DNA of 64,000 nucleotides, from NCBI GenBank assembly GCA_016184115.1, contig JACPDH010000080.1, positions 6,116-70,115 of the forward strand. The letters are read 5' to 3'. Shown piece by piece: positions 4,582 to 62,503 of this stretch; the stretch's first letter is position 1; each line of letters opens with the position of its first letter. Under the pieces are notes generated by a model. That model did not search any database. It was not told the DNA's origin and worked only from the letters and a program-made list of their open reading frames with translations. The stretch is from Acidobacteriota bacterium (GTDB lineage Bacteria > Acidobacteriota > Thermoanaerobaculia > Gp7-AA8). The position numbers were made by a program, and so were the translations under genes.

Positions 4582-6801
4582 ATGGCATTCAACTGCATCT
4601 CCTGCAAATCCGAGATCGACCCGGAATCGAAGGCCTGCCCACGCTGCGGCGACCAGATCACCGATTTCCTACGCACGTATCAACAGCAACTCCTCGACGG
4701 AAAGTACCAGTTGTTGGAGCGGCTGGGACGCGGCGGGATGGGCGAGGTCTACAAAGTACTGCACACACACCTCCACACGATCCGCGTCGTGAAGGTGATG
4801 CGTCCGCAGCTGACGGGCGATCAGTCGCTCCACGAGCGCTTCGTGCGCGAGGCGAAACTCGCGACGCGAATCCAGCACCAGAACGTAGCCACTCTCCACG
4901 ATTTTGCGTCGCTCCCCGACGGCTCCTACTACATGATCTGGGAGTTCATCGATGGGCTGAATCTCGCCGCATTGATCCGTCGCGACGGCCGTCTCGGCAT
5001 CCGAACCGTCATCGACATCGCGATTCAAACGCTGCACGGGCTCGACTCGATTCACTCGGCCGGCATCGTCCATCGCGATATCAGCCCCGAGAACATCATG
5101 GTCTCGAGCGACTCATCGGGACAGCTGCGGGTCAAGCTGATCGACCTAGGCATCGCGAAGAGCGACGCCGTCGATAACTCGCAGACTGCTACCGGCATGT
5201 TCGTGGGCAAATGGAAGTACGCCTCGCCGGAGCACCTCGGCATGATGGAGCCGGGCGAAGTCATCGACGGGCGCGCCGACCTCTACTCCTTCGGCATCGT
5301 GCTCTACGAAATGCTCGCGGGGCGGCCGCCGTTCGAGGCGACGACGCCCGGGCAGTATCTCGTCGTCCATTCGCGCGAGACGGCGAACCCGCTCGTCGAG
5401 CGGCCGATCACGTTTCCCGACGCGCCTGGGCTCGAGAACGTCCTTCGCAAAGCTCTCGAGAAGAAGCGCGAGCTTCGCTACGCCAACGCGCGCGAGCTCG
5501 CGCGCGCGCTCGGTGAGGTGCTCAGCAGGATGCAGGGAGTCGACGACGTCCCGACGGCGATCACGCCGCTGCCGAGTTATCAGGGGCCGACTGCCCCAGG
5601 CTCGGGCGGTCCTGCGTTGCCGACGATGATGCAGACGCCGACGCCTCCGCCAGGACGACCGGGTGCATTCGACCCGACGATGGCGGTACCACAACCGGGC
5701 GCACACGCGCCGACGATGGCGGTTCCGCAGCCGGGAGCGCACGCGCCAACGATGGCCGTCCCGCCGCCGCCTCCAGGGCCGGCGTACTACCAGACGACTC
5801 CTGGCGCCGCGCAACCACCCCACCAGACAGCGCCCGGCGCGCCGCAGACCGTTCTGACATCACCGGGCGTGCATCCGCCCAAGAAATCGAGCAGCGCCCT
5901 CTTCGCGGTGTTAGGCGCCGCGGGAGCGCTCGTCCTCCTCCTCGCGGGAGCAGGCGGCTGGTTCCTTTACAAACAACTGCAGAAGGAGCAGCCCGAGCAG
6001 GCTGCCTCCACGACCGCGACGACGGCAACCGGAACCGCGACCGCGCCGCCCAGCGGAACGATCCTCGACGTCGCGGTCACCCCGACGACGTCGATGACGA
6101 CAGCCGCGGTTCCGGCGACCGAGACGACGAGCACGCTCGTGGAGCTCGCGCCGACCACGACCACCGCGACGGTTCCGCTGATTCCGCCGACCGACATCAA
6201 CACGCGGCCGCCGAAGACGACGACCATGACTCCGGTGACGAGGCCGCCTGTCGACACGCAGCCGCCTACGACGATTGAACCGGAGCCGGAGCCCCCTCCG
6301 GCCGACGACGCGATCGCGACCGCCGGCCCGTTCGGACGCAGGTCGCGCAAGCTCGTCACGGACGAGACCTACTCGCGCGGCTTCAAGCGCGGCATCATCC
6401 GCAATTACGATGACATGTGGGCCGGAACCGACGTCGACTGGGCCTCGGTCGCGCGCGGCGTGAAACTCTCGCAGTACGCGATCAAGGTCGGCCCATTCCG
6501 GAACATGACGCGCTACAACAGTTCCGCGCTCAAGCGAACGCTCGAAGTGACGCTGCAGGATGAGTTCGACGGGATCGCCGGATCGAAGGGCACGCTCCTC
6601 ACACAGAACGCGATCATCTGGGCCTCCGACGCCGAGGACGGTCCCACCGGCCTCGGAATCGAAATGATCTTCCGCGATCCATCGGGCCGCGTCGTCGCAA
6701 AGCTCCGTAATTTCGTGAGGGATTACCCACCTGACGACGCCGCGGAAGAGATGCTCGAGCAGCTCACCGATTTCGTCGAGGATCACCCCGTGATCAAATG
6801 A
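4582..6801 (+). CDS. Hanks-type Ser/Thr protein kinase. It has an N-terminal zinc ribbon, a Pro-rich tandem-repeat linker, one TM helix, a Thr-rich region and a C-terminal extracytoplasmic domain of unknown function.
   Basis: CxxC…CxxC (CISCKSE…CPRCGD). Kinase subdomains are present (GxGGMGEVYK, VHRDISPENIM, DLGIAK, SPE, DLYSFG). A 12-aa repeat (AVPQPGAHAPTM) occurs three times. Hydrophobic segment ALFAVLGAAGALVLLLAGAGGWFLY. Confidence 0.85.
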   Translation: MAFNCISCKSEIDPESKACPRCGDQITDFLRTYQQQLLDGKYQLLERLGRGGMGEVYKVLHTHLHTIRVVKVMRPQLTGDQSLHERFVREAKLATRIQHQNVATLHDFASLPDGSYYMIWEFIDGLNLAALIRRDGRLGIRTVIDIAIQTLHGLDSIHSAGIVHRDISPENIMVSSDSSGQLRVKLIDLGIAKSDAVDNSQTATGMFVGKWKYASPEHLGMMEPGEVIDGRADLYSFGIVLYEMLAGRPPFEATTPGQYLVVHSRETANPLVERPITFPDAPGLENVLRKALEKKRELRYANARELARALGEVLSRMQGVDDVPTAITPLPSYQGPTAPGSGGPALPTMMQTPTPPPGRPGAFDPTMAVPQPGAHAPTMAVPQPGAHAPTMAVPPPPPGPAYYQTTPGAAQPPHQTAPGAPQTVLTSPGVHPPKKSSSALFAVLGAAGALVLLLAGAGGWFLYKQLQKEQPEQAASTTATTATGTATAPPSGTILDVAVTPTTSMTTAAVPATETTSTLVELAPTTTTATVPLIPPTDINTRPPKTTTMTPVTRPPVDTQPPTTIEPEPEPPPADDAIATAGPFGRRSRKLVTDETYSRGFKRGIIRNYDDMWAGTDVDWASVARGVKLSQYAIKVGPFRNMTRYNSSALKRTLEVTLQDEFDGIAGSKGTLLTQNAIIWASDAEDGPTGLGIEMIFRDPSGRVVAKLRNFVRDYPPDDAAEEMLEQLTDFVEDHPVIK
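5674..5775 (+). repeat. 36-bp tandem repeat, about 2.7 copies, in frame inside the kinase linker (encodes PTMAVPQPGAHA).
   Basis: The unit ccgacgatggcggtaccacaaccgggcgcacacgcg is repeated with few mismatches. Confidence 0.8.
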
Positions 6802-7397
6802 GTGAGCCCCGTTCGCCTCGAAGGATCGCCGTCTTTTGCGGTTCGGCGACGGGACACGATCAGCGTCACGTCGCCGCCGCACGCCTCCTCGGTGACACAC
6901 TCGCCGAGCGGGGGATCGGTCTCGTATACGGCGGCGGGAGCATTGGGTTGATGGGCGCGATCGCCGACTCGCTCCTCGCCCGCGGCGGCGAAGCGATCGG
7001 CGTGATCCCTCGCACGCTTTGGGAACGCGAAGTCGGCCATCGCGGCCTAACCGAGCTGCACATCGTCGAGACGATGCACGAGCGGAAGGCAATGATGGCT
7101 GGACTCGCCGATGCATTCGTCGCGCTCCCGGGAGGATTGGGAACGCTCGAAGAGCTGTTCGAGGCGTGGACCTGGTCGCAACTCGGCCTGCATCGCAAAC
7201 CGTGCGCGATCCTCGATGCGAGCGGCTACTACGACGACCTCGTTTCGTTTCTCGACAAGGCAGTCGCTGCTGGATTCGTCGACGCAACCTACCGCGCGAT
7301 GCTCATCGTCGAGCGCGAGCCCGCAACTCTTCTCGAGCGCCTCGCGTCGTACGCACCACCGAGCGTGTCGCGGTGGATCGACAAGGCGACCGTGTGA
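6798..7397 (+). CDS. LOG family protein (cytokinin riboside 5'-monophosphate phosphoribohydrolase-like, TIGR00730-type).
   Basis: Motifs IAVFCGS, GLVYGGGSIGLMG and ALPGGLGTLEEL. Confidence 0.85.
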   Translation: MSEPRSPRRIAVFCGSATGHDQRHVAAARLLGDTLAERGIGLVYGGGSIGLMGAIADSLLARGGEAIGVIPRTLWEREVGHRGLTELHIVETMHERKAMMAGLADAFVALPGGLGTLEELFEAWTWSQLGLHRKPCAILDASGYYDDLVSFLDKAVAAGFVDATYRAMLIVEREPATLLERLASYAPPSVSRWIDKATV

Positions 7398-7400
7398 CGG

Positions 7401-7575
7401 GTTGTTGGTTGTTAGTTGTTGGTTGTTAGTTGTTAGACGGGAGTGGGAGGCTGCGGGTGAGTGCCTGAACCTCAACCGTTCGCGAGTCGGCACCAACACT
7501 CCCGCGGCACATATGTCGCGCGCAACTACCCACGCCTGTCTAACAACTAACAACCGACAACCAGCAACCAACAAC
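7401..7575. repeat. Inverted arrays of heptamer tandem repeats. The left arm (GTTGTTG/GTTGTTA)x5 is at 7401-7438 and the right arm (CTAACAA/CCAACAA)x5 is at 7538-7575. The ~100-bp core carries its own nested hairpin (cgggagtg…cactcccg). The element fills the whole convergent intergenic region.
   Basis: Direct reading of the sequence: gttgttggttgttagttgttggttgttagttgttag … ctaacaactaacaaccgacaaccagcaaccaacaac. Confidence 0.85.
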
Positions 7576-7579
7576 TCCT

Positions 7580-7864
7580 CTACCCACCACTCAGTGCCGG
7601 GAGGATCACGATCTCGCTTCGTGCATGAACCGGCGTCGCGAGGCCTGCCGCAAATCGAATGCTCTCTCCGTCAACGAAGATGTTCACGTGAGGCCTGACT
7701 TCCCCTTTTTCGGTGAGGATGCGGTCGCGCACGCCAGGGCAGCTCCCCCAGAAAAGCGCAAGCGCGTCGGCAAGCGACTTCGCGTTGCCGTCGACGCGGA
7801 CTTCGCCCCGGCTTCCGGCAAGATCGCGCAGCGGCTCTGGAATCACGAAGAGCATTGGCCTCAC
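7580..7864 (-). CDS. MoaD/ThiS-family ubiquitin-like sulfur-carrier protein with a C-terminal Gly-Gly.
   Basis: 94 aa ending in …ILPALSGG. The start overlaps the stop of the upstream gene (ATGA overlap). Confidence 0.65.
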   Translation of the reverse strand: MRPMLFVIPEPLRDLAGSRGEVRVDGNAKSLADALALFWGSCPGVRDRILTEKGEVRPHVNIFVDGESIRFAAGLATPVHARSEIVILPALSGG

Positions 7865-19290: not shown

Positions 19291-19314
19291 CGACAGGGAG
19301 GGAGGAGGGTAGAC

Positions 19315-19433
19315 GGCAGAAAGCAGACGCCAGAAGGCACAAGTCAGAAGGCGAATCGGAGAACGCTAATTCACGCTCCGAAATCTGATATCTGCCATTC
19401 TCCGTTTCTGCCTTCTGGTTTCCGCCTTCTGCC
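19315..19433. terminator. Inverted heptamer arrays, (NNCAGAA)x7 then a spacer then (TTCTGNN)x5, forming a long hairpin between the convergent fahA and cupin genes. Probably a bidirectional terminator.
   Basis: ggcagaaagcagacgccagaaggcacaagtcagaaggcgaatcggagaacg … cattctccgtttctgccttctggtttccgccttctgcc. Confidence 0.6.
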
Positions 19434-19792
19434 TAAATCCGTTCCGGCTCCGCGACTGTCCGATCGCCACCTGCGTTGCCGGTGTTGAGCGTCGAAGCTG
19501 GCTCGAAGAGAAGCACAGAGACCTCAGCCTCCGCGACAGGCCGATGCTCCACTCCGCGCGGAACGACGATGAACTCACCCTCGGCGATCGGCACTTGTCG
19601 GTCGCGGAACTCCATCACGAATCGACCTGCGAGGACGAGGAACATCTCGTCTTCGCGCTCATGCTGATGCCAGACGAACTCGCCCTGAAACTTCACGAGC
19701 TTCACATGTTGGCCGTTGAGCTCGGCGACGATCTTCGGATCCCAGTGCGTCGAGAATATCGCCAGCTTCTGCGCGAGGTTGATCTTCTCCAT
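19433..19792 (-). CDS. Cupin-domain protein.
   Basis: Cupin 2 motif region (HQHEREDEMFLVLAGRF…VVPRGVEH). The start is at ATG 19792 (MEKINL). Confidence 0.65.
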   Translation of the reverse strand: MEKINLAQKLAIFSTHWDPKIVAELNGQHVKLVKFQGEFVWHQHEREDEMFLVLAGRFVMEFRDRQVPIAEGEFIVVPRGVEHRPVAEAEVSVLLFEPASTLNTGNAGGDRTVAEPERI

Positions 19793-25531: not shown

Positions 25532-25561
25532 TTCACAAATCCGAGCCAATTCGGCTATACT
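25532..25561 (+). promoter_or_regulatory. Near-consensus sigma-70 promoter: -35 TTCACA, an 18-nt spacer, and -10 TATACT.
   Basis: ttcacaaatccgagccaattcggctatact. Confidence 0.55.
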
Positions 25562-25567
25562 CCGCGC

Positions 25568-25753
25568 GGCCTAAGAACTACTGGATGGGCAGGCGAAACG
25601 CATCCTGGTTTCCACCTGCCTCCCGAAAGGGAACGTCAGCACACCTAAGTCAGCCGCAGCACCGAGCAGCACCCCACTGAATCCGCAGTTGCATCGTTTC
25701 CAAACCCCATCCAGTTGAGGTTAGCGAGACCCCGGCAGACCGCCGGGGTTTCG
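25568..25753 (+). ncRNA. Candidate structured small RNA of about 185 nt, possibly 6S-like. Its 5' and 3' ends form a long closing stem (ctaa…actggatggg with cccatccagt…ttag), and it ends in a GC hairpin plus TTTCG.
   Basis: Promoter directly upstream. Terminator-like hairpin ccccggcagaccgccgggg+tttcg at 25730-25753. No ORF with coding character. Complementary segments 25581-25589 and 25706-25714. Confidence 0.35.
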
Positions 25754-25787
25754 TGCGTCTGGTGGAAACGAGTGGCAGGCACGCTCC

Positions 25788-25944
25788 GCTAGCCCCAATG
25801 GCCTGAAGTCAAGAAGAAGAGGCTGAAGTTAGAACGATGAACGATGAAGTTTGAACCCATAAAAGGGCCCCGGGCGGCTTTTCAAGGTTCAACGTTCGCC
25901 GTTCTACGTTCTAACTTCGAGACTTTCGTCCCTGGGTTCAGGCC
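25788..25944 (+). mobile_element. Palindromic MITE-like repeat element, copy 1. It has ~60-bp imperfect inverted arms and an internal (GAANNNT) heptamer periodicity.
   Basis: Matches the reverse complement of 30456..30632 at high identity: ggcctgaag…gaagttagaacgatgaacgatgaagtttgaaccc … gttcaggcc. Confidence 0.7.
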
Positions 25945-26024
25945 GTTTCTGCCAGCACGCATCGTTAGGCTGCACGATCAGCTCGCTCTTCGTCGGATCG
26001 ATCCTTGCGCTTCTCGATTCCCGA

Positions 26025-26477
26025 TCATTTCCCGCAGTCGCACTGTGGGCAGCCGTTGTCGAGCACGATCTTCCAGGAGCCGTCGGCCTCGCGTCGCCAG
26101 ACCGAATTGAATGTTCCGACGCGCTCCCCGGTGTCGACGTCCGTCACCGGCCCGCTGCTCATCGCGATCGTGCCCGACTCGAGCACCTCGACCTTCTCCG
26201 GCCCCCACGCGAAGGGAGCCTTGGGCCCCTCGAAGTAGCGCTTCCAACTCTCGGCCACTGCGCCTTGGCCGCGCGTGACGCCCTTCGCACTGAAGAAGAT
26301 CGCCTCGTCGGCGAGGAATGAGGTGAACTTCGCGTGGTCGCGATCGGCCATCGTCTTCGCGAAGGCAACCTCGCTCTTCCAGACCTGCGCCTTCAGCTCC
26401 GCGTTTGATTCGCCGCGTGCCGAGAGCATCGTCAACGTGAGCAGGGCCGCAATCGTCGTGAGTTTTCCGAGCTTCAT
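26025..26477 (-). CDS. Secreted SnoaL/NTF2-like (DUF4440-type) domain protein.
   Basis: Signal peptide. About 130-aa NTF2-like fold pattern. Confidence 0.5.
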   Translation of the reverse strand: MKLGKLTTIAALLTLTMLSARGESNAELKAQVWKSEVAFAKTMADRDHAKFTSFLADEAIFFSAKGVTRGQGAVAESWKRYFEGPKAPFAWGPEKVEVLESGTIAMSSGPVTDVDTGERVGTFNSVWRREADGSWKIVLDNGCPQCDCGK

Positions 26478-26576
26478 CGTCGTCTCCTCGAGTGAAGTGC
26501 GCAGGAGCCACTCTACGGCCCGCGCGCCGGGAGCGCGGTCACGAGTACGATAAAGGAATCGACGGATCGGTTACGG

Positions 26577-27026
26577 TTAGCCGAGCTTCTTTGCGACATC
26601 GACGACCGCGTCGACGTTTGCGAGGGTGACGATGGAACTGACGAGGTATGACTTGACGGCACTCTCGTGCTCGGCGACTTCGGCGTCACTGATTCCGAGC
26701 ACCTTCGCGTACCGGTTGACGAGCTCGCGCTCCTTCCCGTCGAAGCTGTTATCGGCCCACGCCATGAGGATGCAGGTCTTGATGAAAACGTTGCGCAGCG
26801 CGCTCGTGGTAAGCGCCGCGGCGATCTCCTCGGGAGTTGCGTCGGCCGCCCGCTCGAGCTCGGCGAGACTGCGCGTGCCGCCCGCGGCGTCCGCGTAGAA
26901 GCTCATCAGCAGCGCCTTCTCCTTCTCGTGAACACCACCTTCCGCTCTTGCCACCGCGAATAATCCGCGAGCGATCGCCTCTGCCTGCTCGTCGCTGATC
27001 TCGATTTCGGGGAAAAAGGTGTCCAT
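26577..27026 (-). CDS. TerB-like (tellurite-resistance TerB / DjlA N-terminal domain) protein.
   Basis: Repeated helix pattern with conserved acidic residues (…AWADNSFDGKERELV…). The start is at ATG 27026. Confidence 0.5.
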   Translation of the reverse strand: MDTFFPEIEISDEQAEAIARGLFAVARAEGGVHEKEKALLMSFYADAAGGTRSLAELERAADATPEEIAAALTTSALRNVFIKTCILMAWADNSFDGKERELVNRYAKVLGISDAEVAEHESAVKSYLVSSIVTLANVDAVVDVAKKLG

Positions 27027-27207
27027 CGCTGAGCGCCTCCGTTGCTGATCTGGGGAAGGCGGATTGTACCACCTCGCCTGCGGGACACCCCATCGCGGAA
27101 TCCAATACAATTCCGGCCGCACCCGGCTTTGCAGATGCCAACCGGACTCAACGACGCCGAGCAAAGATGGCGAGCGCCAGAATCAGATACGAGAAGGGAG
27201 ACGATCG

Positions 27208-27948
27208 ATGACGGATGGGCCAGCACGCGTAGCGATCGTCACCGGCGGCGCGCGCGGCATCGGTCGCGCGATCGTGCTGCGTCTCGTACGCGATGGATGG
27301 TCCGTTGCGTTCACCTTTCGCAGCTCCGCCGACGCGGCAACGAGCCTTGCCGCGGAAGCCGATGCGGAGCGCCTCCTCGCGCTCGAGGGCGACGTGTCCG
27401 ACGCGGAACGTTGCGCAGCGATCGTCGACGAGGTCATCGCGCGCTTCGGCCGCGTCGACGCGCTCATCAACAACGCAGGAATCCGCCGCGACACACTCGT
27501 CTACAACATGTCGGACGACGACTGGTCCGACGTTCTCCGCACAAACCTCGATGGCGCGTTCCACATGACGCGAGCCGTACTCTCCCCGATGATGCGGCAG
27601 CGCTCGGGGAGCATCGTCAACGTTTCGTCGCTCTCGGGACTTCATGCCGTCGTCGGACAGGCAAACTATGCCGCGTCGAAGGCGGGCCTCATCGCGCTGA
27701 CGCGCACGCTCGCCCGCGAATGCGGCAGGAGCGGCATCCGCGTCAATTGCGTCGCGCCCGGACTCGTCGCAACGGACATGACGGCGGGAATGGACCCCGC
27801 AGCGAAGAGCGAGATGCTCAAGTCGATCCCGATGCGACGCATGGTCACAGCTGACGAGGTCGCGGCCGCCATCGCCTTCTTCCTCGGAAACGATTCGAGC
27901 GGAATCACCGGACAGACGCTCTGCGTTGACGGCGGCACGACCGCTTAA
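27208..27948 (+). CDS. SDR-family oxidoreductase (FabG-like 3-oxoacyl-ACP reductase).
   Basis: TGGARGIGRAI, NNAG and the YAASKAG catalytic motif. RBS gagaagggag. Confidence 0.85.
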   Translation: MTDGPARVAIVTGGARGIGRAIVLRLVRDGWSVAFTFRSSADAATSLAAEADAERLLALEGDVSDAERCAAIVDEVIARFGRVDALINNAGIRRDTLVYNMSDDDWSDVLRTNLDGAFHMTRAVLSPMMRQRSGSIVNVSSLSGLHAVVGQANYAASKAGLIALTRTLARECGRSGIRVNCVAPGLVATDMTAGMDPAAKSEMLKSIPMRRMVTADEVAAAIAFFLGNDSSGITGQTLCVDGGTTA

Positions 27949-27965
27949 CGCGTTGCGCGATCTCA

Positions 27966-28901
27966 ATGCCCTACTTCTCCGTCGTCATCCCAACCCACAA
28001 CCGAATCGCGATGCTCGAGCGCGTGCTCGATGCCCTGGGCCAGCAGCTCGAAGCGCCGAAGTTCGAGGTCGTTGTCATCGACGACGGATCGAATGACGAC
28101 ACCGCCGCAAGAGTGAGCGCTCACCTCGATTCGAAACGCTGGAGCTACCCGCTTCGCTTCGAGTCGCAACAAAACTCCGGTCCTGGTCTCGCCCGGAACC
28201 GCGGCGTCGCGATCGCCCAGGGAAGCTACATCGTCTTCATCGGCGACGATACGGTTCCTGAGCCTCGGTTCCTCGCCGAGCACGCGCGCGTCCACCGCGA
28301 GTGCGGTGACGATCCATTGGCCGCCTGCCTCGGCTACACCGGCTGGCCGCACGATGGCCAGGTAACACCGTTCATGGAGTACATCAACGACTATGGGCTT
28401 CAGTTCGGCTACAAGCTGATCGAGCACGACACGATCGTCCCGTTCAATTTCCTCTACACGTCGAACATCTCAATCGATCGCGAGCTCCTCGCTTCGAACC
28501 CGTTCGACACCTCGTTTCCTGCAGCCGCCTGGGAAGACATCGAGCTCGCGTTCCGGCTCGACGCAAAAGGGCTAAAGATCCACTATGACGCGAAGGCGAT
28601 CACGCGGCACCATCACCCGATGACGATCGATTCGTTCTCGCGCCGCCAATACACCGTCGGGCGCTCCGGTGCAATCTTCTTCGAGAAGCACCCCGGCCTT
28701 GGCCATTGGCTCGGCGTCGTGGAGTTGGGCGAGAAAGGAATCGCGGGCGATGGCGAGCTCAGGCGCCTCCGCTTCTTCGCGCGCCTCGGCGAACGCTTCC
28801 GCCTCTTCGCACGCCCAGCCATCTTCGAACGCCTCATGCGCCAGCATTACCTGCGCGGCCTGAGAGACGGCTTGGCGGAGAGGCAGGTCAAACCCCTATG
28901 A
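27966..28901 (+). CDS. Family 2 glycosyltransferase.
   Basis: FSVVIPTHNR…, DDGSNDDT and the DxD-region characteristic of GT2. Confidence 0.8.
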   Translation: MPYFSVVIPTHNRIAMLERVLDALGQQLEAPKFEVVVIDDGSNDDTAARVSAHLDSKRWSYPLRFESQQNSGPGLARNRGVAIAQGSYIVFIGDDTVPEPRFLAEHARVHRECGDDPLAACLGYTGWPHDGQVTPFMEYINDYGLQFGYKLIEHDTIVPFNFLYTSNISIDRELLASNPFDTSFPAAAWEDIELAFRLDAKGLKIHYDAKAITRHHHPMTIDSFSRRQYTVGRSGAIFFEKHPGLGHWLGVVELGEKGIAGDGELRRLRFFARLGERFRLFARPAIFERLMRQHYLRGLRDGLAERQVKPL

Positions 28902-28937
28902 CCTTTGACCTGCTCTTCACGCGCAAACCTCGCTAGA

Positions 28938-29618
28938 ATGCCGCTCACTATGAAGGGCTTCTTTCTCACGGTCGAAGGCATCGAAGGAAGCGGCAAGACG
29001 ACGCAGATCCAGCGACTTGCGAAGCTGCTTCGCGCGCATGGTCAGAACTGCGTGGTCACGAAGGAACCTGGAGGGACGCCGATCGGCGACAGAGTCCGGG
29101 CGATCCTTCTCGATCCGCAGGCCGAGGGGATGGATCCAGCGGTTGAGCTCTTCCTGCTTGCCGCATCGCGACGGCAGCACGTCATCGATGTGATCCAGCC
29201 TGCGCTCGAGGCCGGAGCCACGGTGTTATGCGATCGCTTCGCCGACGCGAGTGTCGCCTACCAGGGTTTCGGCCGGGCAATCGAGCTCCAGCGCATTCGC
29301 GACCTGAACGAATGGGCGACGTCGGGGATCTATCCTGATCTCACGGTGATCTTCGATCTTTCCGAAGCGGAAGGGCTCGAACGGGCTCGCCGACGGAATG
29401 CAAAGGAGAATCTGTACGCTGAGAGCCGGCTCGAAGGAGAGGATCTGGCATTCCATCGGCGCGTTCGCGAGGGATATCTCGCAATCGCGAAAGAGGACGA
29501 CCGCCGCTTTGCGGTCGTCGACGCAGCTGCCGGCATCGACGAGGTTTTCGAGCGTTTCAAGGCGCTCCTCTCGGCGCGTGCGCCGAAGCTGAAGCTCACG
29601 GCGGCCGAGGGGTCATGA
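28938..29618 (+). CDS. tmk: Thymidylate kinase.
   Basis: P-loop EGIEGSGKTTQ and the DRF motif (LCDRFADAS). Confidence 0.85.
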   Translation: MPLTMKGFFLTVEGIEGSGKTTQIQRLAKLLRAHGQNCVVTKEPGGTPIGDRVRAILLDPQAEGMDPAVELFLLAASRRQHVIDVIQPALEAGATVLCDRFADASVAYQGFGRAIELQRIRDLNEWATSGIYPDLTVIFDLSEAEGLERARRRNAKENLYAESRLEGEDLAFHRRVREGYLAIAKEDDRRFAVVDAAAGIDEVFERFKALLSARAPKLKLTAAEGS

Positions 29619-30436
29619 CGGCAACGCCATCGCACCGTCTCGTCGACTCGGCGCGGCGACGCACGCTCCATCACGCGCTCATTCTTCAGGGACCGTCACC
29701 AAAGACGCTTCGTGCAACCGCAATCTCGATCGCCAAGGCGCTGAACTGCCGGAATGCTTCCGACGGCGACGGCTGCCCTTCGTGCCAGAAGATCGACCGC
29801 CAGATCCATCCCGACGTTCGCGCGCTCGAACCGGCCAAAGACCGGAAGGCAATCTCGATCGAGCAGGTGCGCGAGCTCGTCGCGGAGGCGGGGATGAGGC
29901 CTTACGAGGGAGGGACGAAGGTCTACATCATCGACCCGGCAGACTCTCTGAGCGGCGCCGCCGCAAACTCTCTGCTCAAGACGCTCGAAGAACCAGCGCC
30001 CGACACCGCGTTCGTACTGCTCACGCGCTCGGCCGACCTTCTGTTGCCGACGATCAAGTCTCGCTGTCAGATCGTCTTCCTTCGTCCCGAGCACGACGAC
30101 GTCGAAGAGGCCGATCCGGAGCTCGCACCCGCGCTCGCCGAGCGGCTCGCGAGCTTTGCGGAATCGCGCGACATGGGCGCGCTTCTCGGCATCGCTCCGC
30201 TCCTTTGCGCAGGCGACGCGAAGCATGGCCTCGCTCTCCTTGCCGCAACCCTGCGCGACATCGCGGCGGGTGTGGCGACGGGCCGCGCGGCGGGGGTCGC
30301 ATCCGCGATCCCCCCTTCTCGATTGCTCGATGCGGCTCAGCGCGCCGTGGAAGGCATCGATGCGCTGAATGTGAACGCAGACGCCCGACTCCTCGTCGAG
30401 GACGCACTCATGCTCCTCGCCGGCGCGAAACAGTAG
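29615..30436 (+). CDS. holB: DNA polymerase III delta' subunit.
   Basis: Zinc module CRNASDGDGCPSCQ and the SRC motif (TIKSRCQ). The conserved tmk-holB gene order is present. Confidence 0.75.
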   Translation: MTATPSHRLVDSARRRTLHHALILQGPSPKTLRATAISIAKALNCRNASDGDGCPSCQKIDRQIHPDVRALEPAKDRKAISIEQVRELVAEAGMRPYEGGTKVYIIDPADSLSGAAANSLLKTLEEPAPDTAFVLLTRSADLLLPTIKSRCQIVFLRPEHDDVEEADPELAPALAERLASFAESRDMGALLGIAPLLCAGDAKHGLALLAATLRDIAAGVATGRAAGVASAIPPSRLLDAAQRAVEGIDALNVNADARLLVEDALMLLAGAKQ

Positions 30437-30455
30437 CAGCGATCCTGCGCTTCGC

Positions 30456-30632
30456 GGGCTAGTCCTAATGGCCTGAACTTAGGGACGAAAGTCCTCGAAG
30501 TTCGAACGTGGAGCTTTCAATGCTGAACCCTGAAACCCCCGCTCGAGGCCCCTTTTCTGGGTTCAAACTTCATCGTTCATCGTTCTAACTTCGGCCTCTT
30601 CCTCTTAAGTTCAGGCCATTTAGGCTAGTCCC
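30456..30632 (-). mobile_element. Palindromic MITE-like repeat element, copy 2 (complete). It has ~23-bp terminal inverted repeats GGGCTAGTCCTAATGGCCTGAAC / GTTCAGGCCATTTAGGCTAGTCCC. Its right end supplies the TAG stop codon of msrA.
   Basis: High-identity reverse-complement match to 25788..25944. Located between the convergent holB and msrA genes. Confidence 0.7.
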
Positions 30633-31122
30633 GTACGAAGTGGCAGTTGTAGCCCCACGGGTTCTTCCGCAGGTAGTCCTGGTGGTACTCCTCGGCGTCG
30701 TACCAGGCGGTCGCCGGTACAATCGCCGTAACCAGAGGGCGCGGCCACTTCCCCGACGCGTCGACCTCGGCCTTGACTCGGTCGGCGGTCGCCCTCTGCT
30801 CCTCCGAGTGAACGAAGATCGCAGAGCGGTACTGCGTGCCGACGTCGTTCATTTGCCTGTTCAGCTGCGTCGGGTCGTGCATTCGGAAGAAGAAGCGGAG
30901 GATCTCCTCGTAGGAGATGACCGCGGGATCGAAGGTGATCTTCACGGCTTCTGCGTGCCCGCTATTGCCCTTCTTGACGTAGTCATACGTCGGGTCGTCG
31001 AGCGTGCCGCCGGTGTAGCCGACGACGGTTTCGACGACGCCTGGCAACTGGCGAATCAACTCCTCGACACCCCAGAAGCAGCCCCCGGCCAACGTCGCGG
31101 TCTCTCGATTCGGTTCGGTCAT
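30625..31122 (-). CDS. msrA: Peptide methionine sulfoxide reductase A.
   Basis: Active-site motif GGCFWGVEE. ~165 aa. Confidence 0.85.
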   Translation of the reverse strand: MTEPNRETATLAGGCFWGVEELIRQLPGVVETVVGYTGGTLDDPTYDYVKKGNSGHAEAVKITFDPAVISYEEILRFFFRMHDPTQLNRQMNDVGTQYRSAIFVHSEEQRATADRVKAEVDASGKWPRPLVTAIVPATAWYDAEEYHQDYLRKNPWGYNCHFVRD

Positions 31123-33212: not shown

Positions 33213-33222
33213 GCGAGTGCGG

Positions 33223-33278
33223 AGTCCTAAGTCCTGAGTCCTGAGTCCTCAGTCCTCAGTCCTGAGGACTGAGGACTT
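33223..33278. terminator. Heptamer-repeat hairpin: (AGTCCTN)x6 followed directly by (NAGGACT)x2. Perfect 13+ bp stem between convergent genes.
   Basis: agtcctaagtcctgagtcctgagtcctcagtcctcagtcctgaggactgaggact. Confidence 0.65.
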
Positions 33279-52245: not shown

Positions 52246-52258
52246 GATTGCTCGCTCG

Positions 52259-52280
52259 CTTGTTGGTTGTTGGTTGTTAG
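52259..52280. repeat. Solo heptamer array (GTTGTTG/GTTGTTA)x3 between the fumarase alpha and beta subunit genes. It has the same unit as the 7401-7575 element.
   Basis: cttgttggttgttggttgttag. Confidence 0.7.
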
Positions 52281-52285
52281 AGCCG

Positions 52286-53926: not shown

Positions 53927-54640
53927 ATGCCGTCGCCCTATCGGACTCAGGTTGCCCTTGCCTCTCCGAAATCCGATAATTCAGTCGCGATGCCATCCCT
54001 TGCCGACCGGCGCAGGTTTGAGCACCTGACGCTTCCGAAGCCGCTCCCTGCGAGATTCGGCTCGGAGAAGGTCTTCATCCTCGACCTCTCCATCAATGGC
54101 GCTCGGGTCGCGCATCAGCACCCCCAACTGGCGACCTCGTCAGAGTTTCTTCGTTTCGAGTGGCAGGGCGCCGAGCTCGCGTTCGAGTCCGAGGTCCTGC
54201 GGACATCGGCAGATTCGACGAAAATCGGAAGCACGACCGTCTGGGAGTCGGGGCTCTTTTTCCTCGAAGCTGTCGGGGGCTCCGACAGGACGATCCGCGA
54301 GCTCCTCGCCGACCAGATCCTCCGCGTGCTCGATGAGCGGAAAGCGAATGCTCGCGGCATCCCGCCGATCGCCGCGACGTACGTCAAGACGGGTGGCAGG
54401 GAAGGCGGATATGTCATCTGGAGGCTCGCCGGAGGGCAGTGGCGCTCGACGGCGAGCGAGAAGGCAGACCAGCCAGCCGACGGCTTCACCGTTTCGGCGC
54501 GCGAGTCGAGCGACCAGGTGCAGATGTTGCGCGAAACTTACGAGAACTCCGACTTCGAGGGACGCAAGATGATCCGCAAGATGGCGGAGCTCGCAACCTC
54601 GACTCCGGAAGGAGTCGCAACGAGGAAGTTCCAACCTTAA
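53927..54640 (+). CDS. PilZ-domain protein (the start may be the ATG at 53990).
   Basis: DRRRFEH (RxxxR) and DLSINGARV (DxSxxG) motifs. Confidence 0.6.
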   Translation: MPSPYRTQVALASPKSDNSVAMPSLADRRRFEHLTLPKPLPARFGSEKVFILDLSINGARVAHQHPQLATSSEFLRFEWQGAELAFESEVLRTSADSTKIGSTTVWESGLFFLEAVGGSDRTIRELLADQILRVLDERKANARGIPPIAATYVKTGGREGGYVIWRLAGGQWRSTASEKADQPADGFTVSARESSDQVQMLRETYENSDFEGRKMIRKMAELATSTPEGVATRKFQP

Positions 54641-54760
54641 AGACAAGAGAAAGGCGAAAAGAGAGCGCGGACCCTCTTGCAGTTCTCCCTTCCCCTTTTC
54701 CGTTCTCGCTTTTCCCTTCTCCGTTCCCTTTGCTCCTTCCTCCCTGGTCCCCCCTCCCAC
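54639..54760. repeat. Purine-rich arm (AAAGACAAGAGAAAGGCGAAAAGAGAGCG), a short spacer, then pyrimidine-rich heptamer-like array (CCNTTYT)x8. Imperfect inverted configuration.
   Basis: ctcccttccccttttccgttctcgcttttcccttctccgttccctttgctccttcctccc. Confidence 0.5.
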
Positions 54761-54780: not shown

Positions 54781-56031
54781 ATGACGCTACCGATGAGTCG
54801 ACCGGGATCTTCAGCGGATCGCGCGGATGCCATCGCTGGCGCGGCGAGCGGCTTCAAGTCGTTCGAGACCGCTCTCGAGCAGGCCGCCGACGGGATCGCC
54901 CTGTTCGCGCCCGACGCGTCGGGAATCCTCACGGTCAGCTTCGCGAACGCCGCGCTCTGCCGCCTCTTCTCGCGCGCTCCATCCGAGATCGTCGGCATCG
55001 CGGTCGACGAGCTTGGCATTCGCGAAGACGGCGCGAAGAACGACGCGGTCCGCGAACGGCTTCTCGCAGGACAGCGAATCGCCGGCTCGGGCTCCCTTCT
55101 GCGGGCCGATGGTGTCCGCAAAAGCGTCGACGTGAGCATCGTTCCGGTGCGTGGCGACGGCGGCGACGTCTCTCAATGGATCGCGATCTTCCATGACCTT
55201 CGGGAAGTCGACGCTTCGTCGAAAGATGCGGTCGCGGCCGAGCTGGCCGCGCGCGCGGAAGAGTTGCGCGAGGCGATGATCTGGGACCATCTCGTCAACT
55301 ACTACCAGCCGATCGTCGACCTGAAGACGGGGATCGTCACACACGCCGAAGTTCTCGTTCGCTGGAATCATCCGACGCGCGGATTGCTCGGCCCCGACAA
55401 GTTCCTTCCTCTCGCGGAAGCCACGGGACTGATTCGCGACGTCACGATGTGGTGTTTCGAAGATTCGTTCCGGCAGCACCGTGAGTGGCAGAAGGCAGGT
55501 TTGAACGTCGGCCTCGCGATGAACCTCTCCCCGTCGAACCTTCACGACACCGCGATTGCCGAAACGATCACCGAGTTGCTCGAGACATCAGGAGTCGATC
55601 CAGGAATGCTCCGCGTGGAGATCACGGAGAACGCGATTCTCGACGACCCGACGCACGTGCTCGCGCTTCTCTCCCTCTTGCAGACCTTCGGCGTGTCGCT
55701 CTCGCTCGACGACTTCGGCACCGGTTACTCGTCGCTCACGAACCTGCGCGAGGTGCCGTTTCAGGAGATCAAGATCGACAAGTCATTCGTCCTTAACATG
55801 ATGGAGGAGGAGGGCGACCGCGCCGTGGTGCGTGCCGTGATCGACCTCGCCCACAGCCTCGGCAGGCACGTCGTCGCCGAAGGGATCGAGGACGAGCAAA
55901 CGCTCAATCAGCTGCGCAGCTGGGGCTGTGACTACGCCCAGGGCTACTTCATCAGCCGCCCGATCCCACCGGCACAGTTCGAGGTGTGGGCGAGAAACAA
56001 CCTGGCGGGAAAAGCAGGTCAAAGGTCATAG
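54781..56031 (+). CDS. PAS-EAL domain protein (putative c-di-GMP phosphodiesterase).
   Basis: EAL signature motifs (…EVLVRW…, …EITEN…, …DDFGTGYSSL…, …KIDKSFV…, …EGIE…Q…). Confidence 0.8.
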   Translation: MTLPMSRPGSSADRADAIAGAASGFKSFETALEQAADGIALFAPDASGILTVSFANAALCRLFSRAPSEIVGIAVDELGIREDGAKNDAVRERLLAGQRIAGSGSLLRADGVRKSVDVSIVPVRGDGGDVSQWIAIFHDLREVDASSKDAVAAELAARAEELREAMIWDHLVNYYQPIVDLKTGIVTHAEVLVRWNHPTRGLLGPDKFLPLAEATGLIRDVTMWCFEDSFRQHREWQKAGLNVGLAMNLSPSNLHDTAIAETITELLETSGVDPGMLRVEITENAILDDPTHVLALLSLLQTFGVSLSLDDFGTGYSSLTNLREVPFQEIKIDKSFVLNMMEEEGDRAVVRAVIDLAHSLGRHVVAEGIEDEQTLNQLRSWGCDYAQGYFISRPIPPAQFEVWARNNLAGKAGQRS

Positions 56032-56190
56032 GTCAGAGGTCAAGGCAGGCAGGAGTCCGGCGTGAAGGCGTTCGGTCTGCCGGTAAGGCATTGCTCTCGT
56101 CGATCACCGTCGTTCGACCACACCCCGGAGTCGGGCAGCCTTCCACTCCCGCTGCCTGCTATGACCTGTGACCTTTGGCCTGTGGCCTGC
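56015..56190. repeat. Inverted heptamer arrays. (AGGTCAN)x4 is at 56015-56053 and overlaps the stop of the EAL gene. (NTGACCT)x4 is at 56154-56190. They are separated by a ~100-bp spacer.
   Basis: caggtcaaaggtcataggtcagaggtcaaggcaggcagg … ctgcctgctatgacctgtgacctttggcctgtggcctgc. Confidence 0.75.
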
Positions 56191-56246
56191 ATTCAGAAAC
56201 TTCCCCACTCCGTTCACGTAGAGTGTCCCAACTCAGGAGGAATCTC

Positions 56247-60100: not shown

Positions 60101-60693
60101 GCGAAACACCGCTCGAGCGCGTCGAGAATCAGGGCTACATCCACTACCGGAAGGGCTCGCTCGTCATGTACGCGCTGCGCGACTACATGGGCGAAGAAGC
60201 GCTGAACCGCGCGCTCGCCAGGTTCGTCGCCGACCACAAGTTCGCCGAGCCGCCATACCCTACTTCTCTCGACCTGCTCAGCTACATTCGCGCCGAAGCG
60301 TCGCCCGAGCTGCAGCCCGTAATCACTGACCTGTTCGAGTCGATCACGATCTACGAGAACAAGGCGACCGCCGCCTCGGCATCGAAGCGCGCCGACGGGA
60401 AATGGGTGGTATCGCTCGAGATCGCGGCGGGCAAGTACCACGCAACCGCCGCAGGAAAGGAAGAGCCGGTGAAGATCGGCGACCTCATCGACATCGGCAT
60501 CCTCGGCGACGACCCGAAAGACAAGACCCGCGGCGCTCCCATCCTCTATCTCGAGAAGAAGCGAATCGATCGACCCAAAATGAAGTTCGAAATCGTCGTC
60601 GATCGCGAGCCGTCGAAAGCCGGCATCGACCCGCTCAACAAGCTCATCGACCGAAACCCCGAAGACAATCTGAAGGCAGTGGAACGAAAGTAG
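57161..60693 (+). CDS. ABC-2 type permease fused to an M1-family (aminopeptidase N-like) zinc metallopeptidase. The reading frame is interrupted by a 1-nt frameshift near 58570-58590; the two ORFs in the track are 57161..58645 and 58582..60693.
   Basis: The first ORF has 8+ TM helices and ends in Arg-rich junk after …LSFFVPS. The second ORF starts with more TM helices and continues into an M1 domain with HEVAHQWW…E (HExxH-18-E). The two overlap by 64 nt in different frames. Confidence 0.6.
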
Positions 60694-61083
60694 AAACGCG
60701 AAACGCGGAACGGGAAACACGGAACGCCGAACGGGGAACGCGAAACGCGGAACGGGAAACGCGAAATGTGGAACGGAAAACGCGAAATGTGGAACGCGGG
60801 ATGCGAATGTCGAAACGCGTTACGCGACGAGAAACACAGAACGTTCAAGGCAACCCCAGCCGCACCTCAAACGCGGAGCTCATGAGAGCTAGCTCCTACC
60901 CGGTTCCGCGCCTCATGTAACGGTTTCGCATTTCGCGTTTCGCATTTCGCGTTTCGCATTTCGCGTTCCGCATTCCGCATTTCGCGTTCCGCATTTCGCA
61001 TTTCGCGTTTCGCATTCCGCATTTCGCATTTCGCGTTCCGCATTTCGCGTTCCGCATTTCGTGTTTCGCACTCCGCATTTCGA
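60694..61083. repeat. Large inverted pair of heptamer tandem arrays. (GAAACGC/GGAACGG/GAAATGT…) about x24 is at 60694-60860. (GCATTTC/GCGTTTC/GCGTTCC) about x25 is at 60905-61083. Together they span the whole convergent intergenic region.
   Basis: Direct reading. The ORF-track entries 60402..60920 and 60896..61129 are only translations of the repeats (TRNAERE… and MRNAKCG…). Confidence 0.85.
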
Positions 61084-61600: not shown

Positions 61601-62422
61601 ATGCCAAGAATCGCGTTTCTCGAGCTCCTCGACCGCTATGACGCGGAGATTCTGGAACGACAGCGGCAGGCGGAGCTCGATCCGGTTCCGGAAGCGTTTC
61701 ACCAGCTTCGCGTTCATGTGAAGCGGGCTCGTGCGCTCCTCGAGCTCGTCGACAACGTCGCGCCGAAGTTTCGGCGAACGCGATCGATGCGAGTCTTTCG
61801 TGAGCCGTTCCGAGCCGCCGGTACGATTCGCGACCTCCATGTGCAGCTCGAGATCGCTACCAGCACGGCGTCGCTCTCGTCCGACATCTCGACCTACCTC
61901 GGTATGCTCGAGGCGCGCGAGCATAACGCCGTCACCGCCTGGCTGGCGTCGGGGCCGCGAGTCTCACCTGACCAACTCGCCGCGGTCCGCCGCGAAGTCG
62001 AAGACGCGCTCGCGCGTCGCGGCTGGGTCGAGCTTGCCTCTCGCAGCTGGATGCACTTCATCGCGCGGCTTCGCGACACCCTCGCGTTCGACGTTCACGC
62101 TGCCGACCTTCATGATCTGCGCAAGCGCGTCAAGGACTGCTCGAATCTGACCTGGATCCTCGCAGAAGTCGCGCCGGAGCTGATCATCGCGAAACCGCTG
62201 ACCAGGGCACTCGACAAGCTCCAGAAACAGCTCGGAGACTGGCACGACCTCGACGTCGCCGTTGCCACGTCGGACGAGCTCCCGACGGAAGAACCAGGAT
62301 GCAGCTCCCCCGCAGGCTGGACTGAATTTCGCGCATCGATCGCCGCGAAGCGCGAACAGCTTCGCGAAAAAGTGCTGCGCAATTGGCGGGCGCTCGCGAA
62401 CGTCACGCCGCCGGGAGTCTAG
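61601..62422 (+). CDS. CHAD-domain protein.
   Basis: Repeated His/Arg-containing helices (FHQLRVHVKRAR, LHDLRKRVKD, LGDWHDLDV) typical of CHAD. Confidence 0.65.
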   Translation: MPRIAFLELLDRYDAEILERQRQAELDPVPEAFHQLRVHVKRARALLELVDNVAPKFRRTRSMRVFREPFRAAGTIRDLHVQLEIATSTASLSSDISTYLGMLEAREHNAVTAWLASGPRVSPDQLAAVRREVEDALARRGWVELASRSWMHFIARLRDTLAFDVHAADLHDLRKRVKDCSNLTWILAEVAPELIIAKPLTRALDKLQKQLGDWHDLDVAVATSDELPTEEPGCSSPAGWTEFRASIAAKREQLREKVLRNWRALANVTPPGV

Positions 62423-62503
62423 CCCAGGTTATTCATGAGACCTCTGCTGCGGAGCGCGATAGCCGCATGAGTATTCGCCGGGCTAGTGTAGTGTTTGGGC
62501 CTG

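What the first reader, a model, noticed from the sequence alone, without database searches (positions are those of the whole stretch)
25788..30632. Two inverted copies of a ~160-175 bp palindromic MITE-like element; the complete copy has 23-bp TIRs and donates the msrA stop codon
25788-25944 and the reverse complement of 30456-30632 align over their whole length (ggcctgaa…gaagttagaacgatgaacgatgaagtttgaaccc…gttcaggcc). Only the central ~25 bp diverge. Copy 2 has clean terminal inverted repeats (GGGCTAGTCCTAATGGCCTGAAC). Copy 1 lacks the outer few bases on one side. Neither encodes a transposase. Both lie in convergent intergenic regions. The last codons of msrA (…FVRD-TAG) lie inside the element TIR.
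Basis: seen in the sequence. Interest (0 to 1): 0.6.

Follow-up and report, generated by a model that had tools for sequence, protein, structure and literature searches.

The report
Small mobile hairpin repeat, Thermoanaerobaculia genome
Two copies of a roughly 155-bp non-coding hairpin repeat sit between convergent genes of an uncultured acidobacterium; it looks like an ordinary miniature transposon, and the msrA stop codon lies in its duplicated target site rather than being a gift from the element.

Summary
Two imperfect palindromes, cores 25796-25949 and 30466-30622, are inverted relative to each other. They are 83% identical over 162 nt (BLAST E=3e-41). No further copy lies in the 64-kb window. 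A third copy, about 74% identical, lies in another Thermoanaerobaculia MAG (L001).

The element encodes nothing, matches no Rfam family, and has no hit in plasmid or phage collections.

Copy 1 is absent from the same gerM-sRNA-DUF4440 junction in a relative, so it is an insertion.

All three copies are flanked by 9-bp direct repeats (9/9, 7/9, 6/9 matches). The msrA stop codon lies inside the perfect 9-bp repeat of copy 2. The 120 best MsrA homologues nearly all end ...RD or ...RE at the same position. The protein is therefore unaltered, and the stop codon was most likely duplicated target, not donated.

Copy 1 is not truncated.

New here: each arm holds five degenerate tandem heptamers (GAACGAT-like). 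The window and its relatives carry many other intergenic hairpins built from inverted heptamer arrays.

Verdict: a new MITE-like family of an ordinary kind. Genome-wide copy number and the partner transposase could not be determined. Interest is modest.

The parts
25796..25949 (+). Copy 1, element core, A arm first (CAATGGCCTGAAG ... GGTTCAGGCCGTTTC)
25787..25795 (.). Copy 1, left flanking direct repeat CGCTAGCCC (putative degenerate target-site duplication)
   Evidence: 6/9 matches, or 7/9 one register over. An alternative 22-nt repeat (25773-25794 against 25949-25969, 16/22) was seen by eye.
25950..25958 (.). Copy 1, right flanking direct repeat TGCCAGCAC
25825..25859 (+). Copy 1, A-arm heptamer array GAAGTTA GAACGAT GAACGAT GAAGTTT GAACCCA. 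This 35-mer is identical in copy 2.
25885..25919 (+). Copy 1, B-arm heptamer array (CGTTCNN units), complementary to the A arm
   Evidence: (I2)
30466..30622 (-). Copy 2, element core. The A arm is first on the minus strand, which is the msrA sense.
30457..30465 (.). Copy 2, left flanking direct repeat GGCTAGTCC (putative 9-bp target-site duplication)
   Evidence: 9/9 matches, and the bases on both sides mismatch. P about 5e-5 after allowing for offsets.
30623..30631 (.). Copy 2, right flanking direct repeat GGCTAGTCC. It contains the msrA stop codon (CTA at 30625-30627 on the plus strand).
30558..30592 (-). Copy 2, A-arm heptamer array, identical 35-mer to copy 1
30625..31122 (-). msrA (165 aa, PMSR domain). 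Its C-terminus ...CHFVRD is the same as in its closest homologues.
29615..30436 (+). holB (DNA polymerase III delta'), convergent with msrA. Its stop lies 20 nt before the left direct repeat.
26025..26477 (-). DUF4440/SnoaL-like gene, convergent neighbour of copy 1

Best explanation
The two repeats are copies of a non-autonomous transposable element (MITE-like). The core is about 155 bp and the host is an uncultured Thermoanaerobaculia (Acidobacteriota) genome.

Anatomy of each copy:
- 16-17-bp terminal inverted repeats (NAA(A)TGGCCTGAACTTA)
- a roughly 20-nt subterminal segment
- five degenerate tandem heptamers per arm (GAACGAT-like, with CGTTCNN opposite)
- a G+C-rich loop of about 28 nt

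Inferred mechanism: a transposase encoded elsewhere binds the ends and inserts the element after a 9-bp staggered cut, which leaves a 9-bp target duplication.

At the holB/msrA junction the 9-bp target (GGACTAGCC in the msrA sense) already held the last msrA codon plus part of the preceding one, and the TAG stop. After duplication msrA kept its own end.

Once inserted, the element is a 60-70-bp imperfect hairpin read by both convergent transcription units. It probably acts, incidentally, as a two-way barrier to readthrough or to 3' exonucleases.

Shown: repeat identity, palindromy, lack of coding capacity, the flanking direct repeats, absence at an orthologous site, and presence in a second genome.

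Inferred: the transposase, the staggered cut, and any effect on transcripts.
For: - Similarity between the copies: 83% over 162 nt, E=3e-41.
- A third copy in another Thermoanaerobaculia MAG, about 74% identical over about 155 nt, also intergenic and ending about 28 nt (its flanking repeat 18 nt) from a gene's stop codon.
- Flanking 9-bp direct repeats abut the inverted repeat in all three copies: 9/9, 7/9 and 6/9. Against random flanks with all offsets allowed, P is about 5e-5, 0.05 and 0.05.
- Relatives L038 and L039 (GerM 83% identical) keep the gerM - conserved RNA - DUF4440 order but have a 341-nt spacer instead of 547 nt, and no element.
- All six reading frames are closed, and a six-frame peptide query found no protein.
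- No Rfam family matches at the gathering threshold. At permissive E-values only chance-level sub-threshold hits appear, e.g. plant miRNA precursor models at 24.6 bits against a gathering score of 190.
- No strand preference in RNA folding energy.
- The two arms are distinct sequences conserved across copies: A arms 92/83/81% identical, B arms 78/65/61%. This is expected if they derive from the two different ends of a parent insertion sequence.
- The 120 best MsrA homologues nearly all end ...RD or ...RE at the same position, the closest ones exactly ...CHFVRD. TAG is used by about 23% of genes in the window.
Against: - Only two copies were seen in 64 kb and one elsewhere, so genome-wide copy number is unknown.
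- No insertion sequence with matching ends and no transposase was found.
- Pattern scans of 596 Gb of genomes and of JGI metagenomes gave no other true hit.
- The flanking 9-mers are near-palindromic (CTAG or CATG core). They therefore also score as extensions of the inverted repeat (7/9 in copy 2), and three of the four window termini share CTAGYC. That fits either a target preference or a longer TIR.
- The direct repeats of copy 1 and of L001 are only marginally significant on their own.
- Five relatives end msrA with TGA, not TAG.
- The heptamer substructure is unusual for a MITE and links the element to a local class of heptamer hairpins whose mode of spread is unknown.
Confidence: 0.6

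Rival explanations
1. It is one member of a lineage-specific class of intergenic hairpins built from inverted arrays of tandem heptamers, comparable to cyanobacterial STRR or Xanthomonas GGGAATC pairs. These would arise, spread and be homogenised by slippage, recombination or an unknown dedicated activity, not by a classical DDE transposase. They would be kept because they serve as two-way 3'-end hairpins between convergent genes.
For: - The arms show strong 7-nt periodicity: lag-7 self-match 0.58 and lag-14 0.50, against 0.31 or less at other lags.
- The window holds heptamer-array hairpins at 7396-7580, 19311-19434, 33215-33277, 56011-56193 and 60685-61082. Together with the two copies they occupy 6 of about 12 convergent junctions.
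- Relative L040 has four more in 11.7 kb. Eighteen unrelated 8-kb loci have no inverted pair.
- Orthologous sites in relatives carry arrays whose heptamer differs by one base (CTGAGTC against CTGAGTA downstream of the PatA_N/DUF4388 gene). This suggests concerted evolution in place.
- L040 has a different heptamer hairpin exactly where copy 1 sits.
- Inverted heptamer pairs are known in Xanthomonas (PMC4692102).
Against: - Unlike the other hairpins, this element has about 35 nt of non-heptamer outer arms with a sharp TIR and flanking 9-bp direct repeats.
- The two window copies, and the copy in a different genome, share the full 150-nt sequence and not only its architecture.
- No conserved machinery has been identified.
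Confidence: 0.22
2. One reading: a MITE whose terminal inverted repeat extends through GGG(A)CTAG(Y)CC. It inserted without a 9-bp duplication at or in the old msrA stop codon, so the element's own CTAG now supplies the stop.
For: - Three of the four window termini share CTAGYC at the same distance from TGGCC, and the fourth reads CTGGCA.
- The outer 9-mers of copy 2 match 7/9 as an inverted repeat.
- All five relatives whose msrA 3' end was read use TGA, whereas the window uses TAG.
Against: - The outer 9-mers of copy 2 match better as a direct repeat (9/9, with mismatching neighbours) than as an inverted repeat.
- L001 lacks CTAG at its ends yet has 7/9 (8/10) flanking direct repeats.
- It requires an insertion exactly at the codon boundary that reproduces the ancestral protein end.
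- TAG is a common stop codon here, about 23% of genes.
Confidence: 0.1
3. It is a structured non-coding RNA gene or a cis-regulatory RNA present in two copies.
For: The fold is very stable. The consensus fold of the three copies keeps 60 pairs, 8 of them with changes on both sides.
Against: - No Rfam match.
- No promoter-like or terminator-like site at either copy.
- Both strands fold equally well.
- Most of the double changes fall in the putative target duplication.
- The element is absent from close relatives at the same locus.
Confidence: 0.04

Closest known systems
Bacterial MITEs with long hairpin potential (Correia/NEMIS of Neisseria, ERIC/IRU of enterobacteria, RUP of Streptococcus)
   Same: 100-200 bp, non-coding, with terminal inverted repeats. 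The whole element folds into a hairpin. They are intergenic, often at gene 3' ends, co-transcribed with neighbours, and present or absent between relatives.
   Different: No sequence similarity. The flanking duplication appears to be 9 bp rather than TA. The arms contain tandem heptamers. Copy number and partner transposase are unknown. (The features of the named families are from my own knowledge.)
Inverted heptamer-repeat pairs: Xanthomonas GGGAATC arrays (Rehm et al. 2015, PMC4692102) and cyanobacterial STRR heptanucleotide repeats
   Same: Intergenic tandem heptamers, frequently as two arrays in convergent orientation able to form stem-loops, and lineage-specific.
   Different: Xanthomonas disperses a single G-rich heptamer. 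Here each locus or family has its own heptamer. In the element under study the heptamers are degenerate and are enclosed by non-repetitive TIR-bearing outer arms.
REP/BIME/REPIN elements mobilised by RAYT (Y1/HUH) transposases
   Same: Extragenic palindromes at convergent gene ends that can act as mRNA 3' stabilisers.
   Different: REP units are 20-40 nt with a GTAG or CGTC head (PMC3733652), and RAYT-type transposition makes no target duplication. Here the palindrome is about 155 nt, has no such head, and carries 9-bp flanking direct repeats.
IS10/Tn10 and other DDE insertion sequences with 9-bp duplications and symmetric target preference (NGCTNAGCN for Tn10)
   Same: A 9-bp duplication. The duplicated sites share a near-palindromic core (GNCWWGNC: GACTAGCC, CGCTAGCC, GTCATGGC).
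   Different: No transposase or full-length IS was found. The TIR sequence does not resemble those of IS10, IS50, IS1 or IS903 as I recall them. This is an analogy for mechanism only.

Membership tests
MITE (non-autonomous DNA transposon) | Small size (under about 500 bp) and no coding capacity | tested here: met
   Core of 154-157 bp. Stops in all six frames, and no frame is conserved. The six-frame peptide query found nothing.
MITE (non-autonomous DNA transposon) | Terminal inverted repeats | tested here: met
   Copy 2: TAATGGCCTGAACTTA against TAAATGGCCTGAACTTA. The TGGCCTGAA core is conserved in five of the six termini of the three copies; the sixth (L001 B end) reads TGGCCTTGA.
MITE (non-autonomous DNA transposon) | Target-site duplication flanking each copy | tested here: inconclusive
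   9-bp direct repeats with 9/9, 7/9 and 6/9 matches. The first is convincing and the other two are marginal. The near-palindromic sequence confounds direct against inverted reading.
MITE (non-autonomous DNA transposon) | Multiple dispersed copies in one genome | tested here: inconclusive
   Two copies in 64 kb. The rest of the genome could not be reached. Logan contigs of the same strain end inside the element, but they also end elsewhere.
MITE (non-autonomous DNA transposon) | Presence/absence at orthologous sites | tested here: met
   Copy 1 is absent from the gerM-RNA-DUF4440 junction of L038 and L039. The flanks are too diverged for a base-exact empty site.
MITE (non-autonomous DNA transposon) | Cognate autonomous IS or transposase with the same ends | not testable with these tools
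   None in the window. No hit in plasmids or phages.
REP/REPIN | 20-40-nt palindromic unit with a GTAG or CGTC head; RAYT gene; no target duplication | tested here: not met
   The palindrome is about 155 nt, no GTAG or CGTC head is present at the ends, and flanking 9-bp repeats are present. The RAYT gene could not be tested.
Heptanucleotide tandem-repeat arrays (STRR-like, Xanthomonas-like) | Head-to-tail heptamers, often as inverted pairs | tested here: met
   TRF reports GAACGAT x2.4 and TTCAACG x4.4. Lag-7 self-match is 0.53-0.68 in all six arms. The arrays are degenerate and form only the inner half of each arm.
Intrinsic (Rho-independent) terminator | Short G+C-rich stem followed by a T run | tested here: not met
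   The scan lists no terminator-like site at either copy. No T run follows either arm.
Any Rfam RNA family | Covariance-model score at or above the gathering threshold | tested here: not met
   No hit at the gathering threshold in the window. Only chance-level hits at E up to 10.

The most novel reading that the evidence does not exclude
The element is the best-preserved family of a lineage-specific system of structure-defined mobile hairpins made of inverted tandem-heptamer arrays. Different families use different heptamers (GAACGAT, GGTTGTT, AGGTCAA, GAAACGC, CTGAGTC, AGAAGGC, GAATTGA). They would colonise about half of the convergent gene junctions in these Thermoanaerobaculia, evolve by concerted evolution in place, and move between loci by a mechanism that recognises architecture rather than sequence.
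Probability: 0.12. Interest if true: 0.65.

Novelty: new member of a known kind. Interest (0 to 1): 0.3.

Why it matters
For this finding alone, little. MITE-like hairpin repeats at convergent gene ends are common, and this one leaves MsrA unchanged.

It has practical value. These hairpins break short-read assemblies of this lineage: Logan contigs end inside them. They are therefore under-represented in MAGs. They mark at least one synteny breakpoint, at holB/msrA.

The wider pattern would deserve a proper genome-wide study if complete genomes of the lineage become available. About half of the convergent junctions are occupied by heptamer-array hairpins. The same heptamers appear at non-orthologous sites in different genomes, and one-base-different heptamers appear at orthologous sites.

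Tried and rejected
1. Pattern scan of 185,579 species genomes (GGCCTGAA-N15-21-GAAGTTNGAACG) gave 19 hits, about the chance expectation. Only L001 was real.
2. A slightly stricter pattern against JGI metagenomes gave 2 chance hits.
3. Two scans of viral contigs gave only chance hits or none.
4. A six-frame translation of the three copies was used as a protein query, to catch spurious ORFs over other copies. Nothing scored at E up to 10.
5. BLASTN of copy 2 against plasmid and phage collections gave no match.
6. I tried to extend into the rest of the 94-kb source contig by looking up proteins at the window edges. One look-up returned only short Logan contigs and the other was not on record.
7. 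I tried to infer extra copies from where Logan contigs end (30576, 30591, 25904). The only 31-mers shared by the two copies do not predict these ends. However, contigs of the same runs also end at non-repeated places, so the inference was dropped.
8. Inversion of the 4.6-kb segment between the two inverted copies was rejected. Relatives have the same gene order and orientation at the left end, and copy 2 has an intact 9/9 duplication.
9. integron attC site: the termini do not fit RYYYAAC/GTTRRRY (by eye). LexA or other GAAC-box operator: the spacing is 7 nt, unlike known boxes (own knowledge).
10. The spermidine-synthase-like gene that follows msrA in relatives is not in the window.


Full report
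**Observation**

The two repeats exist as described. The repeat finder reports inverted arms 25789-25870 and 30547-30628 (82 nt, 90% complementary), plus internal inverted repeats within each copy. BLASTN gives 83% identity over 162 nt (E=3e-41) between copy 1 and the reverse complement of copy 2.

Each copy folds into one long imperfect hairpin: -76 and -84.8 kcal/mol, z = -5.5 and -8.7 against dinucleotide shuffles. Diagnostic patterns occur only at these sites, with zero expected by chance. An nhmmer profile finds no further copy in the 64-kb window.

**Context and organism**

The window is ordinary chromosome, about 63% G+C. It has no tRNA gene, no Rfam hit at gathering thresholds and no transposase.

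- Copy 1 lies between a gerM-like gene (plus a conserved RNA-like gene, see 'Other observations') on the plus strand and a DUF4440 gene on the minus strand.
- Copy 2 lies between holB (+) and msrA (-).

MsrA and GerM homologues place the organism in Thermoanaerobaculia, Acidobacteriota. The source is a GenBank MAG contig of 94,296 nt, with proteins MBI2214484.1 and MBI2214534.1. The same strain occurs in Logan assemblies of SRR12113418/21/22, whose contigs end inside the elements.

**Anatomy**

Aligned in the same orientation, each copy has two distinct arms.

- The A arm is AATGGCCTGAA-STYAAGAGGAAGAGGCY-GAAGTTAGAACGATGAACGATGAAGTTTGAACCC.
- The B arm is only 65-75% complementary to it.
- A G+C-rich loop of about 28 nt separates them.

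A arms are 92% identical between the window copies and 81-83% identical to the third copy. B arms are 78% and 61-65%. Such asymmetry would be expected if the arms descend from the two different ends of a parent element.

The inner half of each arm is a degenerate array of five heptamers (GAAGTTA GAACGAT GAACGAT GAAGTTT GAACCCA). Lag-7 self-match is 0.53-0.68 in all six arms, against 0.31 or less at other lags except 14.

RNA folding energies are the same for both strands. No promoter-like or terminator-like site lies at either copy.

**Other copies**

One of them, L001, is a genuine third copy at 4602-4753, about 74% identical. It comes from a Thermoanaerobaculia MAG (JBAZBK010000025.1). It is again intergenic and ends about 28 nt from the stop of a minus-strand gene; its flanking repeat ends 18 nt from that stop.

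The JGI metagenome scan, viral scans, plasmid and phage BLAST, and a six-frame peptide trick found nothing more. Short-read assemblies break at these hairpins, so absence from MAG collections is weak evidence about copy number.

**Evidence that it is an insertion**

Relatives L038 and L039 (GerM 83% identical) and L040 (77%) keep the order gerM - conserved RNA - DUF4440(-) - TerB(-). L038 and L039 have a 341-nt spacer and no element; the window has 547 nt. L040 has a different 130-nt heptamer hairpin at the same place.

**Ends and the stop codon**

Immediately outside the inverted repeat, all three copies carry 9-bp direct repeats.

| Copy | Left repeat | Right repeat | Matches | P with all offsets allowed |
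|---|---|---|---|---|
| Copy 2 | GGCTAGTCC, 30457-30465 | GGCTAGTCC, 30623-30631 | 9/9, neighbours on both sides mismatch | about 5e-5 |
| L001 | GTCCTGACC, 4593-4601 | GCCATGACC, 4754-4762 | 7/9 (8/10) | about 0.05 |
| Copy 1 | CGCTAGCCC, 25787-25795 | TGCCAGCAC, 25950-25958 | 6/9, or 7/9 one register over | about 0.05 |

The msrA stop codon (30625-30627) lies inside the right repeat of copy 2.

The 120 best MsrA homologues nearly all end ...RD or ...RE at the same position. The closest ones, most of them also 165 aa long, end exactly ...CHFVRD. The insertion therefore did not change the protein.

The simplest reading is a 9-bp target duplication. The target GG-GAC-TAG-CC already contained the stop. 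Removing the element and one repeat leaves CTTCGTACGGGACTAGCCCGCGAAG, a small palindrome between the two convergent stops. This follows and is an inference.

Two points go the other way. The 9-mers are near-palindromic, so they also read 7/9 as inverted repeats. Five relatives end msrA with TGA. However, TAG ends about 23% of genes in the window, and L001 has flanking direct repeats without any CTAG. I put duplication against donation at roughly 6 to 1.

Copy 1 is full length; its B-side terminus is diverged, not missing.

**The wider class**

The heptamer structure led to an unexpected observation. The window contains further intergenic hairpins made of an array of tandem heptamers, a spacer, and the complementary array.

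| Position | Heptamer arrays |
|---|---|
| 7396-7580 | GGTTGTT / AACAACC |
| 19311-19434 | AGAAGGC / TCTGCCT |
| 33215-33277 | GAGTCCT / GAGGACT |
| 56011-56193 | AGGTCAA / TGACCTN |
| 60685-61082 | about 20 x GAAACGC / about 22 x GTTTCGC |
| 54640-54739 | weaker case |
| 52256-52281 | single array |

Together with the two copies they occupy 6 of about 12 convergent gene junctions, often abutting both stop codons. The other junctions have ordinary G+C-rich hairpins.

L040 has four such hairpins in 11.7 kb. Eighteen unrelated control loci, about 140 kb, have none in inverted pairs.

The same heptamer occurs at non-orthologous sites in different genomes:
- GGTTGTT in window 7400 and in L040 489, with weakly similar spacers.
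- AGGTCAA in window 56015 and in L027 235-258.

Orthologous sites carry one-base-different heptamers: CTGAGTC in the window against CTGAGTA in L027, downstream of the PatA_N/DUF4388 gene. Nearly all have the purine-rich or G-rich array first.

Inverted heptamer pairs are known in Xanthomonas, and heptamer arrays in cyanobacteria (PMC4692102, PMC4679880). The kind is therefore not new, but its density and the diversity of heptamers here are notable.

**Mechanism and rivals**

Best-supported (0.6): a non-autonomous transposon moved in trans by an unseen transposase that makes 9-bp staggered cuts. After insertion it is a long hairpin in the 3' regions of two convergent units.

Rivals:
- A member of the heptamer-hairpin class that spreads by another route and is kept as a two-way 3' hairpin (0.22).
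- An RNA gene (0.04).

**Known families**

It meets the descriptive MITE criteria: size, no coding capacity, TIRs, insertion polymorphism, and a probable TSD. Copy number and a partner IS are untested. It fails the tests for REP/REPIN, intrinsic terminator and Rfam membership. It shares the heptamer-array feature with STRR-like repeats.

**Verdict**

A real repeat and a new family of an ordinary kind. The stop-codon claim is probably wrong and has no functional consequence. Interest 0.3.

**Other observations**

The heptamer-hairpin landscape and a conserved unannotated RNA-like gene next to copy 1 are the more interesting by-products. They are itemised in the noticed-in-passing list.

Noticed in passing
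window 25532-25765 (+): An unannotated, highly conserved RNA-like gene of about 190 nt. It has its own promoter-like site (TTCACA-18-TATACT, 25532-25561), a long-range closing stem (25571-25600 with 25695-25724) and a terminator hairpin (25729-25755). It is almost invariant in relatives whose flanking GerM is only 77-83% identical. There is no Rfam match even at E up to 10. The rod-like shape recalls 6S RNA, but that was not shown.
   Followed up: partly
window 7396-7580, 19311-19434, 33215-33277, 54640-54739, 56011-56193, 60685-61082 (and a single array at 52256-52281): Intergenic hairpins built from an array of tandem heptamers, a spacer, and the complementary array, each with a different heptamer. 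With the two copies of the finding they fill 6 of about 12 convergent gene junctions, often touching both stop codons. The largest has about 20 and about 22 units.
   Followed up: partly
L040 489-661, 2859-3027, 4381-4458, 10885-10987; L027 184-258: Relatives carry the same kind of heptamer hairpins. Some sit at sites that are empty in the window (HPPD/HgmA junction). Some use the same heptamer at a non-orthologous site (GGTTGTT, AGGTCAA). Some sit at the orthologous site with a one-base-different heptamer (CTGAGTA against CTGAGTC), which suggests both dispersal and concerted evolution.
   Followed up: partly
L031 4324-4537: In another relative (MsrA 84% identical) the region just downstream of msrA holds 1.9 tandem copies of an unrelated 114-nt repeat containing GTCGCCCTGAGCGAAGCGAAGGGC. 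The contig ends in it.
   Followed up: no
window 30436-30625 against L026-L030 and L035: Copy 2 sits at a synteny breakpoint. In these relatives msrA is followed on the same strand by a spermidine-synthase-like membrane protein gene that is absent from the window. Only the window has holB convergent with msrA.
   Followed up: partly
window 30450-30465 plus 30623-30640: With the element and one 9-bp repeat removed, the junction reads CTTCGTACGGGACTAGCCCGCGAAG, a 25-nt imperfect palindrome centred on CTAG. The element may have inserted into the centre of a small hairpin.
   Followed up: no
window 25773-25794 and 25949-25969: Copy 1 is also bracketed by a longer degenerate direct repeat (TGGCAGGCACGCTCCGCTAGCC against TGCCAGCACGCATCGTTAGGC, 16/22 with one gap). 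This competes with the 9-bp reading for this copy.
   Followed up: no
L020-L023 and L041 mapped to window 25904, 30576, 30591, 33252, 61032: Short-read (Logan) contigs of the same strain repeatedly end inside the element and inside the heptamer hairpins. Such repeats will therefore be systematically missing or truncated in short-read MAGs of this lineage.
   Followed up: partly
window 62415-62490: Another convergent junction holds a hairpin whose arms contain CTAGCCC and GGGCTAG. The first overlaps the TAG stop of the CHAD-domain gene. This resembles the CTAG-containing flanks of the element. CTAG occurs only 17 times in the window, 8 of them intergenic or at gene ends.
   Followed up: no
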